This document shows positions 49,901-55,900 of a stretch of 64,000 nucleotides of DNA, one piece after another. Positions within the stretch are counted from its first letter, which is position 1. Every line of letters begins with the position of its first letter. The DNA lies in the NCBI RefSeq assembly GCF_013167455.1, contig NZ_CP038328.1. One strand, 5' to 3'. Source of the stretch: Escherichia coli O157:H7. GTDB lineage: Bacteria; Pseudomonadota; Gammaproteobacteria; Enterobacterales; Enterobacteriaceae. The position numbers are program-made.

Positions 49901-52900
49901 AAACGCGATTGCCAAAAGTTGCGCCATGATTGTCGCCGCCGATGAGTTCATTCCTGGCAACGGTATTCCGGTAGATAGCGTGGTCATTGACCGCAAAATC
50001 AATCCGCTACAGATCAAACAAGACGGTGGCAAAGCCTTAAAACTGCTGGTGCTGTGGCGTAGTGATGAAGATGCGCAGCAACGCCTGGATATGGTGAAAG
50101 AGTTTAACGAACTGTGCCACTCACACGGCCTGGTAAGCATTATTGAGCCAGTCGTCCGCCCACCACGTCGTGGCGATAAATTCGATCGCGAACAAGCGAT
50201 CATCGATGCCGCCAAAGAGCTGGGCGACAGTGGCGCTGACCTCTACAAAGTTGAAATGCCGCTTTACGGTAAAGGTCCGCAACAAGAGCTTCTCAGTGCT
50301 TCACAACGTCTGAATGACCATATCAATATGCCGTGGGTGATCCTCTCTTCCGGTGTCGACGAAAAACTGTTCCCGCGTGCCGTACGCGTGGCAATGACAG
50401 CGGGTGCATCGGGCTTCCTGGCTGGTCGTGCTGTCTGGGCATCGGTCGTCGGTTTACCAGACAACGAGCTGATGCTGCGTGACGTTTGCGCACCGAAATT
50501 ACAACAACTTGGCGATATCGTCGACGAAATGATGGCTAAACGCCGTTAAAATGGGGATACAAAAATGAAATGGTTTAACACTTTAAGTCACAACCGTTGG
50601 CTGGAACAGGAAACCGATCGCATCTTTGATTTTGGTAAAAATTCCGTAGTACCGACCGGATTTGGCTGGTTAGGCAATAAAGGGCAAATCAAAGAAGAGA
50701 TGGGCACCCATCTGTGGATCACAGCTCGTATGTTGCACGTTTATTCCGTTGCTGCGGCGATGGGTCGACCTGGCGCTTACTCGTTGGTTGATCACGGTAT
50801 TAAAGCCATGAACGGCGCACTGCGCGATAAAAAATATGGCGGCTGGTATGCCTGTGTGAATGACGAGGGCGTGGTGGATGCCTCCAAACAGGGCTATCAA
50901 CATTTCTTTGCTCTGCTGGGTGCTGCCAGCGCCGTCACAACGGGTCACCCGGAAGCGCGCAAGCTGCTCGATTACACCATTGAAATTATCGAGAAATACT
51001 TCTGGAGCGAAGAAGAGCAGATGTGCCTGGAGTCCTGGGACGAAGCCTTCAGCAAAACCGAAGAGTACCGCGGCGGCAATGCCAATATGCACGCAGTGGA
51101 AGCTTTCTTAATTGTTTATGACGTAACGCATGACAAAAAATGGCTGGATCGCGCGATTCGCGTGGCTTCCGTGATTATCCACGACGTCGCAAGAAATAAT
51201 CATTATCGCGTTAACGAACACTTCGATACCCAGTGGAATCCGCTGCCGGATTACAACAAAGATAACCCGGCGCACCGCTTCCGCGCGTTCGGAGGTACAC
51301 CAGGCCACTGGATCGAATGGGGCCGTTTAATGCTGCACATCCACGCGGCCCTGGAAGCCCGTTGCGAACAACCGCCAGCATGGCTGCTAGAAGATGCCAA
51401 AGGTCTGTTTAACGCCACCGTGCGTGATGCCTGGGCACCCGATGGTGCGGACGGGATTGTTTATACCGTTGACTGGGAAGGAAAACCGGTGGTCCGCGAA
51501 CGTGTGCGTTGGCCTATCGTCGAAGCGATGGGTACGGCCTACGCGCTCTACACCGTCACCGGCGATCGCCAGTACGAAACCTGGTATCAGACATGGTGGG
51601 ACTACTGCATCAAATACCTGATGGACTACGAAAATGGTTCATGGTGGCAGAAGCTGGATGCGGACAATAAGGTCACCACCAAAGTCTGGGACGGCAAACA
51701 GGATATTTATCACCTGCTGCATTGCCTGGTGATCCCGCGTATCCCGTTAGCGCCAGGCCTGGCTCCGGCAGTTGCGGCGGGTCTGCTGGATATTAACGCG
51801 AAATAACTGACTAAAAAAACGACATATCAGGCTGCACGCCGGGTATGTCGTTATTCAATAAAGGTACCTCGTATGCAAATCACCAACATGCATTGCAGTG
51901 GACAGACCGTTTCACTTGCCGCGGGGGATTATCACGCGACCATTGTGACCGTCGGTGCAGGTCTGGCTGAATTAACCTTTCAGGGCTGTCATTTAGTTAT
52001 TCCACATAAACCCGAAGAGATGCCGCTGGCACATCTGGGCAAAGTCCTTATTCCGTGGCCGAACCGGATCGCCAACGGCTGTTATCGCTATCAGGGGCAG
52101 GAATATCAGTTACCCATTAATGAACATGGTTCAAAAGCCGCTATTCATGGGCTGCTCGCCTGGCGTGACTGGCAAATCAGCGAATTAACCGCCACCAGCG
52201 TTACCCTGACAGCTTTTCTGCCGCCCAGTTACGGCTATCCGTTTATGCTGGCTTCGCAGGTTGTTTATTCGCTCAATGCACGCACGGGTCTTTCCGTTGA
52301 GATCGCAAGTCAGAATATTGGTACTGTGACCGCACCCTATGGTGTGGGTATTCATCCTTATTTAACCTGCAACTTAACATCTGTTGATGAATATCTGTTC
52401 CAGCTTCCGGCAAACCAGGTTTATGCCGTCGATGAGCACGCTAATCCGACAACGCTTCACCACGTTGATGAGCTGGATTTAAATTTCACGCAGGCGAAAA
52501 AAATAGCCGCGACAAAAATCGACCACACCTTTAAAACCGCTAATGATCTGTGGGAAATAACCATTACCCATCCACAACAGGCGCTTTCGGTTAGCCTTTG
52601 TTCCGATCAACCCTGGGTACAAATTTATAGCGGTGAAAAATTACAGCGTCAGGGACTGGCAGTTGAACCTATGAGTTGCCCGCCTAACGCCTTTAATTCA
52701 GGTCTCGACTTATTATTACTGGAACCAGGGAAAACGCACCGCCTGTTTTTTAATATTTACGGGCAACACAATTAATTTTATTAAGAAAAGAACGAGATCA
52801 TTGTTTAGAGTTGTATTTACACAACAGGAAATATTATGGACTTTTTTACGTTATTTTCACCGGATGGGGTCATGCTGGAAACAAACGTGGTATGTATCGT

Positions 52901-55900
52901 TATCGCGTTAATGTTTCTTTATACCTTTGTGGGGATATGCGCGGGATTTGGCGGTGGTTTAACCACTATGCCGCTCGTCACGTTAATGCTCCCCGTAAAA
53001 ATGGCAACACCACTCTCGGTAATTGTCGGCACCGCGACCGCCTTGTACGCCACCTGGCTGTCACGTAAAGAAACGGATTGGCGATCGGCAATGGTACTGA
53101 TTATTTTCTCGTTTCTGGGAATACCCGTCGGTTTATATGCACTGTCGTATTTACCCGACCATTTTATGAAAGTGGGCTTAGGCGGATTCCTTATCCTGTA
53201 CTCCTTTTACAGTATGTTTATTCCACGCCTGCCGATTTATGACCGTAGCTGGATCGCCGCACCTATCGGTGCAGTAGCAGGCGCATTAGGCGCAGCTTTC
53301 TCAACCAACGGACCACCGATGGTTATCTACGGTATGCTGCGTAACTTAGGCCCGGCGGCATTTCGTGGCACTCTGAACGCTTTCTTCACCGCAAACAACA
53401 TCGCGGTGATCGGCGGGCTGGCGACCAGCGGAATTTTGACTGTTTCGATCTTTAAACTGGTGCTGTTTTGTATTCCCACCATGATCCTCGGTTCACTGGT
53501 TGGACAATATGTGCATAAACGTATTTCAGTCAAAGTGTTCCGTGTGATGGTCTTTTTATTGCTGATTGCCTCCGGTTCCATGTTGATAAAAGGCGCGCTG
53601 GGAATTCCCGCCGCTGCCGCACTTCTACCTCCGTTTACCTTGTTAGTTATACTGCAACTGGTATTTGGTAAAAAAGTGGCGGCAATCCGTCAGGCTGAAG
53701 CAAGTAAATAATCACTTATGCGGGTTTAAATTTATATCCGCACACATTCTTTAATTAATTAAACCTGTAATAACAGGATGGCATGAAATATTAGCTTTAT
53801 ACTCTATGGAGATTATTTATGGATACGCCACGCCCACAATTACCAGATTTTGAATTTCATCAGAATAACGACAGTTTTACCCTACATTTTCGACAACGTC
53901 TTATTTTAACCCATAGCAAAGATAATCCTTGTTTATGGATTGGCTCAGGTATAGCGGACATCGATATGTTCCGCGGCAATTTCAGCATTAAAGATAAACT
54001 ACAGGAGAAAATTGCGCTTACCGACGCCATCGTCAGCCAGTCACCGGATGGTTGGTTAATCCATTTCAGTCGTGGTTCTGACATTAGCGCCACGCTGAAT
54101 ATCTCTGCCGACGATCAGGGCCGTTTATTGCTGGAACTACAAAACGACAACCTTAACCACAACCGCATCTGGCTGCGCCTTGCCGCTCAACCAGAGGACC
54201 ATATCTACGGCTGCGGCGAACAGTTTTCCTACTTCGATCTGCGCGGCAAACCGTTCCCGCTATGGACCAGTGAACAAGGCGTTGGTCGCAACAAACAAAC
54301 CTATGTCACCTGGCAGGCCGACTGCAAAGAAAATGCGGGCGGCGACTATTACTGGACTTTCTTCCCACAGCCTACGTTTGTCAGCACGCAGAAGTATTAT
54401 TGCCATGTTGATAACAGTTGCTATATGAACTTCGACTTTAGTGCCCCGGAATACCATGAACTGGCGCTGTGGGAAGACAAAGCAACGCTGCGTTTTGAAT
54501 GTGCTGACACATACATCTCCCTGCTGGAAAAATTAACCGCCCTGCTGGGACGCCAGCCAGAACTGCCCGACTGGATTTATGACGGAGTAACGCTCGGCAT
54601 TCAGGGCGGGACGGAAGTGTGCCAGAAGAAACTGGACACCATGCGTAACGCGGGCGTGAAGGTCAACGGCATCTGGGCGCAGGACTGGTCCGGTATTCGT
54701 ATGACCTCTTTTGGCAAACGCGTGATGTGGAACTGGAAGTGGAACAGCGAAAACTACCCGCAACTGGATTCGCGTATCAAGCAGTGGAACAAAGAGGGCG
54801 TGCAGTTCCTTGCCTATATCAACCCGTATGTTGCCAGTGATAAAGATCTCTGCGAAGAGGCGGCAAAGCGCGGTTATCTGGCAAAAGATGTCGCCGGTGG
54901 CGACTATCTGGTGGAGTTTGGCGAGTTCTACGGCGGCGTTGTCGATCTCACCAATCCGGAAGCCTACGCCTGGTTCAAGGAAGTTATCAAAAAGAACATG
55001 ATTGAACTCGGCTGCGGCGGCTGGATGGCTGACTTCGGCGAGTATCTGCCCACCGACACGTACCTGCATAACGGCATCAGCGCGGAAATTATGCATAACG
55101 CCTGGCCCGCGCTGTGGGCGAAATGTAACTACGAAGCCCTTGAAGAAACGGGCAAGCTCGGCGAGATCCTCTTCTTTATGCGCGCCGGTTCTACCGGTAG
55201 CCAGAAATACTCCACCATGATGTGGGCGGGTGACCAGAACGTGGACTGGAGTCTGGACGATGGCCTGGCGTCGGTTGTCCCGGCGGCGCTATCTCTGGCA
55301 ATGACCGGACATGGCCTGCATCACAGCGACATTGGCGGTTATACCACCCTGTTTGAGATGAAGCGCAGCAAAGAGCTGCTGCTGCGCTGGTGCGATTTCA
55401 GCGCCTTCACGCCGATGATGCGCACCCACGAAGGTAACCGTCCTGGCGACAACTGGCAGTTTGACGGCGACGCGGAAACCATCGCCCATTTCGCCCGTAT
55501 GACCACCGTCTTCACCACCCTGAAACCTTACCTGAAAGAGGCCGTCGCGCTGAATGCGAAGTCCGGCCTGCCGGTTATGCGCCCGCTGTTCCTGCATTAC
55601 GAAGACGACGCGCAGACCTATTCCCTGAAATATCAGTACCTGTTAGGTCGCGACATTCTGGTTGCTCCGGTACACGAAGAAGGTCGCAGCGACTGGACGC
55701 TCTATCTGCCAGAGGATAACTGGGTCCACGCCTGGACCGGAGAAACCTTCCACGGTGGAGAAATAACTGTTGAAGCGCCCATCGGCAAGCCGCCGGTCTT
55801 TTATCGCGCCGACAGCGAATGGGCTGCACTGTTCGCCTCGTTAAAAAACATCTAATCATGCCCGCCCGTGGGGAAACTCACGGGCAAATGGAGAATAACG

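What the first reader, a model, noticed from the sequence alone, without database searches (positions are those of the whole stretch)
52836..53711. TSUP/TauE-like permease gene embedded in the sulfoquinovose cluster
A 291-aa polytopic membrane protein with two Gly-rich motifs is encoded between yihR and yihQ, co-directional with yihUTSR and yihQPO-ompL. I recall the K-12 cluster as ten genes (ompL, yihO-yihW) with nothing between yihR and yihQ, though I cannot verify this. TauE/SafE-family proteins export sulfite and small sulfonates, so an eleventh gene of this family would suggest a dedicated export route for the sulfonate end-product (DHPS or sulfolactate) or for sulfite. Its GC looks host-like by eye, so it may be ancestral and lost in K-12 rather than recently acquired.
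Basis: partly seen in the sequence, partly recalled or inferred. Interest (0 to 1): 0.6.

Follow-up and report, generated by a model that had tools for sequence, protein, structure and literature searches.

The report
Sulfonate exporter gene in sulfoquinovose operon
E. coli O157:H7 carries an eleventh gene in its plant-sulfosugar (sulfoquinovose) operon, a TauE-family membrane transporter that K-12 has lost; it most likely exports the sulfonate waste product, which makes it a useful but unsurprising addition to a known pathway.

Summary
Window 52836-53711 (+) is a real 291-aa gene between yihR and yihQ. It matches Pfam TauE/SafE (PF01925, E=8e-35) and RefSeq already names it "sulfite exporter TauE/SafE family protein" in E. 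coli O157:H7.

K-12 lacks it, with a 198-bp spacer in its place. Among 5,426 complete E. coli genomes, 1,286 carry it and 2,609 have the K-12-type junction.

The gene is ancestral, not a recent insertion. Salmonella has the same yihR-tauE-yihQ order, and its TauE is as diverged as the neighbouring proteins (87% aa). Synonymous sites are saturated, dN/dS is about 0.05, and GC is host-like.

The protein belongs to a tight clade (at least 77% identity) found only in Enterobacterales. The next relatives reach only 38% identity. All 12 genera examined carry it inside a sulfoquinovose cluster, either sulfo-EMP (two gene orders) or sulfo-ED. It is the only transporter type shared by both pathways, and both encode a sulfolactaldehyde-reductase-type enzyme.

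My best reading is a DHPS exporter, partly redundant with YihP. Transport itself is untested. Sulfite export is unlikely because no desulfonating enzyme is present.

TauE-type exporters are already proposed for other sulfoglycolysis clusters, so this is a new member of a known kind.

The parts
52836..53711 (+). tauE-like CDS (291 aa, stop included). RefSeq names it 'sulfite exporter TauE/SafE family protein', WP_000345437.1.
52826..52829 (+). Shine-Dalgarno AGGA, 6 nt upstream of the ATG
   Evidence: read directly from the sequence
52944..52976 (+). Gly-rich motif 1 (residues 37-47, GFGGGLTTMPL). It sits at the break between predicted helices 16-36 and 40-49.
53268..53333 (+). Gly-rich motif 2 (residues 145-166, GALGAAFSTNGPPMVIYG). 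It sits at the break between predicted helices 138-155 and 159-169.
53610..53702 (+). Clade-specific C-terminal extra helix (residues 259-289) with a basic tail. It is absent from the nearest outgroup TauE proteins.
52783..53759 (.). Segment present in O157-type cassettes. In K-12-type cassettes about 130 bp of unrelated AT-rich sequence takes its place. Homology with K-12 stops at about 52782 and resumes at about 53760.
51873..52775 (+). yihR (sulfoquinovose mutarotase), the upstream neighbour
53819..55855 (+). yihQ (sulfoquinovosidase), the downstream neighbour
48751..59491 (+). Inferred transcription unit yihU-yihT-yihS-yihR-tauE-yihQ-yihP-yihO-ompL. No + strand promoter-like or terminator-like site was found between yihR, tauE and yihQ.
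46868..48583 (-). csqR (yihW) regulator and yihV sulfofructose kinase, the divergent arm of the cluster

Best explanation
The gene encodes an inner-membrane secondary transporter of the TauE/SafE (TSUP) family and is an integral, ancestral component of the enterobacterial sulfoquinovose (SQ) catabolic cluster. It is probably co-transcribed with yihUTSR and yihQPO-ompL. It most likely exports 2,3-dihydroxypropane-1-sulfonate (DHPS), the anionic end-product that YihU makes from sulfolactaldehyde. The predicted protein has a 4+4-helix core. The first helix of each half is broken at a Gly-rich motif (GFG; TNGPP), and the two breaks are inferred to form the mid-membrane anion site. A clade-specific ninth helix follows. 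The role appears partly redundant with the MFS/GPH carrier YihP, which would explain why about two thirds of E. coli long cassettes, including K-12, have lost tauE, and why a Klebsiella cluster keeps YihO plus TauE but no YihP. What is shown here: the gene, its family, its topology model, its conservation, its synteny and its exclusive association with SQ clusters. What is inferred: co-transcription, the substrate (DHPS), the direction (export) and the redundancy with YihP.
For: Family: PF01925 E=8e-35. Confident AF2 model (pLDDT 87.9, pTM 0.83) with a repeated helix pattern and broken helices at the two invariant Gly motifs.

Ancestry: Salmonella has the same yihR-tauE-yihQ order. TauE is 87.3% identical, against 87.0 for YihQ, 85.8 for YihP and 88.0 for YihT. 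pS is 0.73-0.78, which is saturated, and dN/dS is 0.04-0.05. E. whittamii has the same arrangement.

Specific link to SQ catabolism: only one full-length 50%-identity cluster exists among 1.84 billion representatives, and the next relatives reach at most 38% identity. All 12 genera examined have the gene inside an SQ cluster. These are sulfo-EMP type 1 (E. coli, E. whittamii, Salmonella), sulfo-EMP type 2 with yihQ-tauE-yihP/O (RIT691, Klebsiella, Atlantibacter), and sulfo-ED (Hafnia, Kluyvera, Leminorella, Mixta, Morganella, Enterobacter kobei). The sulfo-ED identity is supported by the SDR gene scoring 324 bits against PDB 9gwu, 'Sulfoquinovose 1-dehydrogenase'. The TauE tree splits exactly by cluster type. 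The three outgroup TauE proteins checked are in unrelated contexts.

Export of DHPS: TauE is the only transporter type common to the EMP clusters (GPH carriers plus porin) and the ED clusters (SSF carrier). Both cluster types encode a beta-hydroxyacid-dehydrogenase-type reductase (YihU, or a 28-32% identical paralogue) and no aldehyde dehydrogenase. The ED clusters have two transporters for two jobs, and the SSF family is a sugar-import family. E. kobei has one tauE serving adjacent ED and EMP clusters. The Klebsiella cluster has a YihO-clade carrier plus TauE and no YihP. The assignment of YihP as DHPS exporter in the literature is only 'most likely' (PMC6278857). TauE-type proteins are the proposed C2/C3-sulfonate exporters in the sulfo-TAL, sulfo-TK and Arthrobacter sulfo-EMP clusters (PMC7491151, PMC12890257, PMC8873060).
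Against: No transport, expression or mutant data exist for this protein. K-12, which lacks it, is described as using the sulfo-EMP pathway and exporting DHPS (literature read), so it cannot be essential. The TSUP family was named after an uptake system, so direction cannot be read from family membership. The reductase in the ED clusters is only 28-32% identical to YihU and scores no better against YihU than against tartronate-semialdehyde reductase or 3-hydroxyisobutyrate dehydrogenase, so DHPS as the ED end-product in these bacteria is itself inferred. Co-transcription rests only on short gaps and the absence of consensus promoter or terminator hits.
Confidence: 0.6

Rival explanations
1. It is an importer: it takes up SQ, or another sulfonate, in parallel with YihO/YihP or the SSF carrier.
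For: The TSUP family is named after a toluenesulfonate uptake component (PMC8873060). SQ is, like DHPS, common to the EMP and ED clusters.
Against: Every cluster already encodes a sugar-type symporter, either GPH or SSF. A K-12 yihO deletion strain cannot grow on SQ (cited in PMC6278857), so YihO is the importer there. The ED clusters have no sulfoquinovosidase, so there is no second imported substrate to account for, while no other exporter candidate is encoded.
Confidence: 0.15
2. It is a sulfite exporter, as the database name says, and removes sulfite released from a sulfonate.
For: The RefSeq and Pfam family name. TauE of Cupriavidus necator was described as a sulfite exporter (title cited in PMC8873060).
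Against: None of the 12 clusters examined encodes a desulfonating enzyme. The neighbours are an isomerase, kinase, aldolase, reductase, mutarotase and glycosidase, or a dehydrogenase, lactonase, dehydratase, aldolase and reductase. In the literature read here, the sulfo-EMP pathway ends in DHPS, which is exported and not desulfonated. The clade is at most 38% identical to any other TauE-family protein.
Confidence: 0.05
3. It exports a different pathway-derived anion, for example sulfolactate, the reactive aldehyde sulfolactaldehyde, or sulfosugar phosphate overflow. In this reading it acts as a safety valve rather than the main DHPS route.
For: It is dispensable in K-12-type strains. TauE-type proteins are assigned to sulfolactate, isethionate or 3-sulfopropionate export in other clusters.
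Against: No sulfolactaldehyde dehydrogenase is present in any of the clusters. The clusters consistently pair tauE with a reductase gene.
Confidence: 0.12
4. It is a recent horizontal insertion into the O157 lineage, or a decaying relic without function.
For: Presence is polymorphic in E. coli: 1,286 genomes with it against 2,609 without. Nucleotide divergence between the two haplotypes peaks around the indel.
Against: Salmonella and E. whittamii have the same position and order, with divergence equal to the neighbouring genes. Synonymous sites are saturated and dN/dS is 0.04-0.05, including within Escherichia. GC and GC3 are host-like. No mobile-element genes flank it.
Confidence: 0.03

Closest known systems
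TauE/SafE (TSUP, Pfam PF01925, formerly DUF81) sulfite/organosulfonate exporters, e.g. TauE of Cupriavidus necator H16
   Same: Near full-length match to the family HMM. Polytopic 4+4-helix architecture with two Gly-rich motifs. Genomic association with organosulfonate metabolism.
   Different: At most 38% identical to any family member outside its own enterobacterial clade. It carries clade-specific N-terminal (about 12 aa) and C-terminal (about 40 aa, one extra helix) extensions. Its context produces no sulfite. No NCBIfam model covers it.
TauE-type exporters proposed in other sulfoglycolysis clusters: SftE (sulfo-TAL, Bacillus/Firmicutes), SqwE (sulfo-TK), and the TauE permease of the Arthrobacter sulfo-EMP cluster
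   Same: Same protein family, same logic (export of the C2/C3 sulfonate end-product) and same kind of evidence, namely gene-cluster association (PMC7491151, PMC12890257, PMC8873060).
   Different: Different phyla and pathways. Those proteins were not compared directly here; if they are in the library searched, they lie outside the at-least-77% clade. This is the variant belonging to the prototypical E. coli/Salmonella yih cluster, which the literature I could read describes as a 10-gene cluster without it (PMC8006165, PMC12608037).
YihP (GPH/MFS_2 carrier), the presumed DHPS exporter of the K-12 yih cluster
   Same: Encoded in the same operon. A candidate for the same export step. The distribution is complementary: K-12 type has YihO+YihP, Klebsiella has YihO+TauE, and O157/Salmonella have all three.
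   Different: Unrelated fold and family. YihP is 65% identical to the importer YihO and belongs to a sugar:cation symporter family. Its exporter role is an assumption ('most likely', PMC6278857).

Membership tests
TauE/SafE = TSUP family (Pfam PF01925) | Significant, near full-length match to the family profile HMM | tested here: met
   E=8.2e-35, 121 bits, residues 23-248 against model positions 2-235 of 237. Homologues carry precomputed PF01925.
TauE/SafE = TSUP family (Pfam PF01925) | Polytopic membrane protein of about 8 TM helices arranged as two 4-helix halves | tested here: met
   AF2 model with pLDDT 87.9. Helices 16-36/40-49, 54-75, 82-105, 108-128, then 138-155/159-169, 173-198, 203-227, 232-255, plus an extra helix 259-289.
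TauE/SafE = TSUP family (Pfam PF01925) | Internal duplication detectable between the two halves at sequence level | tested here: inconclusive
   BLASTP of the N half against the C half gives E=0.16. hhalign of the half-alignments gives a probability of about 1%. Only the secondary-structure pattern and the placement of the Gly motifs repeat.
TauE/SafE = TSUP family (Pfam PF01925) | Conserved Gly-rich motifs in the first helix of each half | tested here: met
   G37, F38, G39, M45, P46 and G145, P160, P161, Y165 are invariant in 36 sequences that include 30-35% identical outgroups. G149, G152 and G159 are conserved in at least 90%.
TauE/SafE = TSUP family (Pfam PF01925) | Transports sulfite or an organosulfonate | not testable with these tools
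   Needs transport assays or mutant physiology.
Sulfite exporter sensu stricto (TauE/SafE of taurine/sulfoacetate pathways) | Encoded with a desulfonating, sulfite-releasing enzyme | tested here: not met
   No such enzyme family appears among the neighbours in 12 genera.
Sulfoquinovose catabolic gene cluster (sulfo-EMP yih cluster) component | Located inside the cluster, co-directional, with no separating promoter or terminator signals | tested here: met
   Gaps of 60 and 107 bp. No + strand promoter-like or terminator-like site in the yihR-tauE or tauE-yihQ spacers; the one + strand terminator-like hit in the scan (52884-52909) lies inside the tauE coding sequence, and hit counts match shuffled expectation.
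Sulfoquinovose catabolic gene cluster (sulfo-EMP yih cluster) component | Conserved co-occurrence with the pathway genes across taxa | tested here: met
   12 of 12 genera. The TauE phylogeny mirrors the cluster type. Outgroups are not associated.
Sulfoquinovose catabolic gene cluster (sulfo-EMP yih cluster) component | Induced by SQ / controlled by CsqR; a mutant phenotype on SQ | not testable with these tools
   No expression or mutant data for tauE-positive strains were found in the papers searched.

The most novel reading that the evidence does not exclude
In Enterobacterales the dedicated DHPS exporter of sulfoglycolysis is this TauE-clade protein, not YihP. The textbook 10-gene K-12 cluster would then be a reduced derivative of an ancestral 11-gene cluster, in which YihO and YihP are both importers (SQ and SQ-glycosides) and DHPS leaves K-12 by a moonlighting route. 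The same exporter module has been retained in two non-homologous pathways (sulfo-EMP and sulfo-ED), which replace one another at the same yihX-bipA chromosomal slot.
Probability: 0.35. Interest if true: 0.55.

Novelty: new member of a known kind. Interest (0 to 1): 0.4.

Why it matters
Export of the sulfonate end-product is the least-tested step of the model sulfo-EMP pathway, and YihP was assigned to it by elimination. This analysis makes four points relevant to that step.
- The K-12 cluster is a reduced form of an 11-gene ancestral cluster.
- About one third of E. coli long cassettes, and Salmonella, carry a conserved TauE-family transporter.
- The same transporter clade accompanies both sulfo-EMP and sulfo-ED clusters.
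- Together these give a concrete candidate that can be tested by knockout.

DHPS released by enterobacteria feeds sulfite- and H2S-producing gut bacteria, so who exports it and how bears on gut sulfur cross-feeding. It also bears on how pathogens such as O157:H7 and Salmonella use plant sulfolipid. It remains an incremental addition to a known scheme.

Tried and rejected
- **NCBIfam scan:** no family hit.
- **PDB by sequence:** no relative found.
- **Foldseek against PDB:** nothing at E<0.001. The best hit is BacA/UppP at TM 0.46, so no solved homologue constrains the mechanism.
- **Genome-contig scan with the single protein:** it returned only 3 loci because the peptide patterns were too exact. 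I surveyed contexts through the look-up of encoding contigs instead.
- **Remnant of tauE in the K-12 spacer:** none found by blastn with a 7-nt word. The K-12-specific stretch of about 130 bp also matches none of the other loci.
- **Internal-repeat detection:** BLASTP and hhalign were both inconclusive.
- **Rfam on 45-62 kb:** no RNA family.
- **Promoter and terminator scan:** hit counts match the shuffled expectation. None lies on the + strand in the spacers between yihR, tauE and yihQ.
- **Literature:** searches by protein accession and by guessed EDL933/Sakai locus tags (only unrelated hits) gave nothing. One broad taxon search was uninformative. Denger 2014 and Felux 2015 are not held, so I cannot exclude that their supplementary figures show this gene.
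- **Rejected readings:** recent HGT, pseudogene and sulfite exporter. The reasons are given under the rival explanations.
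Full report
**1. The observation**

- It sits 60 bp downstream of yihR (51873-52775) and 107 bp upstream of yihQ (53819-55855).
- It points the same way as yihU-T-S-R and yihQ-P-O-ompL.
- An AGGA Shine-Dalgarno lies 6 nt before the ATG.
- The N-terminus MDFFTLF... is conserved in every orthologue, so the start is sound.
- No Rfam family competes for the interval, and the only ORFs of at least 80 aa overlapping it are an 85-aa + strand ORF in another frame and an 84-aa reverse-strand ORF.

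**2. Where the window comes from and what K-12 has**

The 1,131-bp interval is 100% identical to E. coli O157:H7 chromosomes. There RefSeq annotates the ORF as 'sulfite exporter TauE/SafE family protein', WP_000345437.1, between yihR and yihQ.

A K-12-lineage genome (O16:H48) has only a 198-bp yihR-yihQ spacer.
- Homology between the two haplotypes stops a few bases after the yihR stop, at about 52782.
- It resumes at about 53760, some 60 bp before yihQ.
- The K-12 spacer in between holds about 130 bp of AT-rich sequence with no similarity to tauE or to any other locus I fetched.
- So the K-12 state is a replacement or an old deletion scar, not a clean excision.

Among 5,426 complete E. coli genomes:
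- 1,286 carry the tauE-type interval.
- 2,609 carry the K-12-type junction.
- I did not characterise the remainder; a published short yihTUVW cassette that lacks yihR and yihQ (PMC12608037) could account for many of them.
- TauE is therefore present in about one third of long cassettes.

**3. Family and architecture**

Pfam TauE (PF01925) matches residues 23-248 at E=8.2e-35 over almost the whole model. No NCBIfam model hits.

An AlphaFold2 model built on a 36-sequence alignment is confident (pLDDT 87.9, pTM 0.83). The same helix pattern appears twice:
- First half: helix 16-36, break, 40-49, then 54-75, 82-105, 108-128.
- Second half: helix 138-155, break, 159-169, then 173-198, 203-227, 232-255.
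- An extra C-terminal helix spans 259-289.

Their key residues are invariant or nearly invariant even in outgroups at 30-35% identity. At sequence level the two halves are not detectably similar.

No solved structure is related by sequence or convincingly by fold. The best hit is BacA/UppP at TM 0.46 with E>0.007.

**4. Ancestral, not acquired**

- Salmonella enterica has the identical yihR-tauE-yihQ arrangement.
- Its TauE is 87.3% identical to the O157 protein. That matches YihQ 87.0, YihP 85.8, YihO 84.5, YihT 88.0 and YihU 87.9.
- Synonymous sites between E. coli and Salmonella, Hafnia or Klebsiella are saturated (pS 0.73-0.78), while pN is only 0.075-0.12.
- Within Escherichia, dN/dS is 0.04-0.05.
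- GC (48.5%) and GC3 (52%) fall within the range of the neighbouring genes.
- Escherichia whittamii has the same layout with 98% aa identity.
- Hence the Escherichia-Salmonella ancestor had the 11-gene cluster and K-12-type strains lost the gene.
- The two E. coli haplotypes are unusually divergent right around the indel: 85-91% nt identity at the yihR 3' end and in the yihQ leader, against 97-99% further out. This suggests an old polymorphism.

**5. A clade dedicated to sulfoquinovose clusters**

Against 1.84 billion representatives clustered at 50% identity, there is a single full-length cluster (80% identity). After it comes a gap down to at most 38% identity and 143 bits. All close homologues (79% identity or more to the O157 protein) come from Enterobacterales.

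I examined the context in 12 genera, and every one is a sulfoquinovose cluster.
- **Type 1**, yihR-tauE-yihQ: E. coli, E. whittamii, Salmonella.
- **Type 2**, yihQ-tauE-yihP/yihO: Enterobacteriaceae RIT691, Klebsiella quasipneumoniae, Atlantibacter.
- **Type 3**: tauE is the last gene of an operon encoding a dehydratase, aldolase, mutarotase, lactonase, reductase and SDR. This operon is divergent from LacI and an SSF transporter. It is found in Hafnia, Kluyvera, Leminorella, Mixta, Morganella and Enterobacter kobei.

Type 3 is a sulfo-ED cluster. Its SDR scores 324 bits against PDB 9gwu 'Sulfoquinovose 1-dehydrogenase', while the next hit scores 201 bits.

A neighbour-joining tree of TauE separates exactly into these three types. 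The transporter has therefore co-evolved with each cluster.

Three outgroup TauE proteins (35-37% identity) lie in unrelated contexts.

**6. What the contexts say about function**

The EMP clusters import with GPH/MFS carriers (YihO, YihP) and a porin. The ED clusters import with an SSF carrier. TauE is the only transporter type common to both.

The two pathways share the substrate SQ, the mutarotase, and a beta-hydroxyacid-dehydrogenase-type reductase. That reductase is YihU in EMP, or a paralogue 28-32% identical to YihU in ED. No cluster has an aldehyde dehydrogenase, so both are predicted to end in DHPS.

Three natural variants are informative.
- The ED clusters have no sulfoquinovosidase and exactly two transporters. 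One is a sugar-family symporter and the other is TauE, which fits 'SQ in, DHPS out'.
- E. kobei has an ED cluster with tauE and a mutarotase directly beside an EMP cluster that lacks both yihR and tauE. One copy apparently serves both pathways.
- The Klebsiella cluster keeps a single GPH carrier that groups with YihO (72-77% identity, against 67-69% to YihP) plus TauE, and has no YihP. K-12 keeps YihO plus YihP without TauE.

A K-12 yihO deletion strain cannot grow on SQ, and YihP is called the DHPS exporter only as 'most likely' (PMC6278857). The complementary losses therefore fit a model in which YihP and TauE are alternative routes for DHPS efflux. This is inference, and no transport data exist.

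**7. Expression**

No sigma-70-like promoter or intrinsic terminator is predicted on the + strand between yihR, tauE and yihQ. Co-transcription within the yihU...ompL unit is the simplest reading, but it is not shown.

**8. Rivals**

- **Importer (0.15):** possible from family history, but each cluster already has a dedicated sugar symporter.
- **Sulfite exporter (0.05):** this is the database name, but no desulfonating enzyme is encoded nearby in any genus.
- **Exporter of another anion such as sulfolactate or sulfolactaldehyde (0.12):** cannot be excluded.
- **Recent insertion or relic (0.03):** contradicted.

**9. Comparison with the literature and novelty**

TauE-type exporters are already proposed for several sulfoglycolysis clusters:
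- the sulfo-TAL cluster, as SftE (PMC7491151);
- the sulfo-TK cluster, as SqwE (PMC12890257);
- the Arthrobacter sulfo-EMP variant (PMC8873060);
- an extended Enterococcus cluster (PMC11489063).

The idea itself is therefore established. By contrast, the papers I could read describe the E. coli cluster as ten genes and the Salmonella one as syntenic to it (PMC8006165). A 2025 survey of yih cassette variants in E. coli distinguishes only 'long' and 'short' forms and does not mention this gene (PMC12608037). I could not read Denger 2014 or Felux 2015, which may show it in supplementary figures.

My verdict is a new, uncharacterised member of a known kind. The added points are the ancestral 11-gene architecture, a dedicated enterobacterial clade shared by the EMP and ED clusters, and a testable challenge to the YihP assignment.

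**10. Limits**

- The context survey covers 12 genera chosen from the hit list. It is not exhaustive.
- The E. coli counts rest on megablast coverage of junction queries.
- I did not map phylogroups or screen for pseudogenised alleles.
- I did not compare the protein directly with the characterised TauE, SafE, SftE or SqwE sequences.

Noticed in passing
L016 (Enterobacter kobei contig), 1095-10876 and 12315-20876: A complete sulfo-ED cluster (with tauE and a mutarotase) lies about 1.4 kb from a sulfo-EMP cluster that lacks both yihR and tauE. Two T6SS-related genes (Hcp, Tlde1) and one unannotated 64-aa ORF lie between them. One strain therefore encodes two sulfoglycolytic routes that apparently share one mutarotase and one TauE.
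   Followed up: partly
L010 (Kluyvera ascorbata), 297-12768: The sulfo-ED cluster occupies the same chromosomal slot (between yihX/yihY and bipA-glnA) that holds the sulfo-EMP yih cluster in E. coli, Salmonella and Atlantibacter. Two non-homologous pathways for the same substrate replace each other at one locus, and tauE is the only shared gene.
   Followed up: partly
L005/L006, L009, L010, L012, L013, L016: The enterobacterial sulfo-ED clusters carry a beta-hydroxyacid-dehydrogenase-type reductase (28-32% identical to YihU) instead of a sulfolactaldehyde dehydrogenase, and they have no sulfoquinovosidase. This predicts a DHPS-forming variant that uses only free SQ. ED-type TauE proteins are 86-93% identical across four to five families (Morganella against Kluyvera is 93%), which suggests lateral spread of the whole cluster. 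In Morganella an integrase and a transposase lie about 5-7 kb away.
   Followed up: partly
window 53764-53777; L002 4222-4235: A perfect palindrome CCTGTAATAACAGG lies about 40 bp upstream of yihQ. It is conserved in both the tauE-positive and the K-12-type Escherichia haplotypes, with one substitution in O6:H16 and a 6-bp duplication in strain WP7. It is absent from Salmonella and the other genera. It could be an operator or a small hairpin.
   Followed up: no
L002 4085-4217 (K-12-type yihR-yihQ spacer): About 130 bp of AT-rich sequence replaces tauE in K-12-type strains. It has no detectable similarity to tauE or to any fetched locus, and its origin is unexplained.
   Followed up: partly
window 48751-57800 compared with L002, L014, L015: The yih cassette is unusually polymorphic and mosaic within E. 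coli. In 300-bp windows, nucleotide identity between strains ranges from 84% to 100%. One example is the yihS-yihR spacer region (51701-51921), which is 87% identical between O157 and K-12. This agrees with the recombination reported in PMC12608037.
   Followed up: partly
window 51873-52775 (yihR): YihR is by far the most divergent protein of the cluster between E. coli and Salmonella: 69% aa identity, against 84-97% for the others. It falls to 53-59% against the type-2 genera.
   Followed up: no
L015 3116-4017 (E. coli WP7-S17-ESBL-01): yihR is annotated as frameshifted (a pseudogene) in this K-12-type cassette.
   Followed up: no
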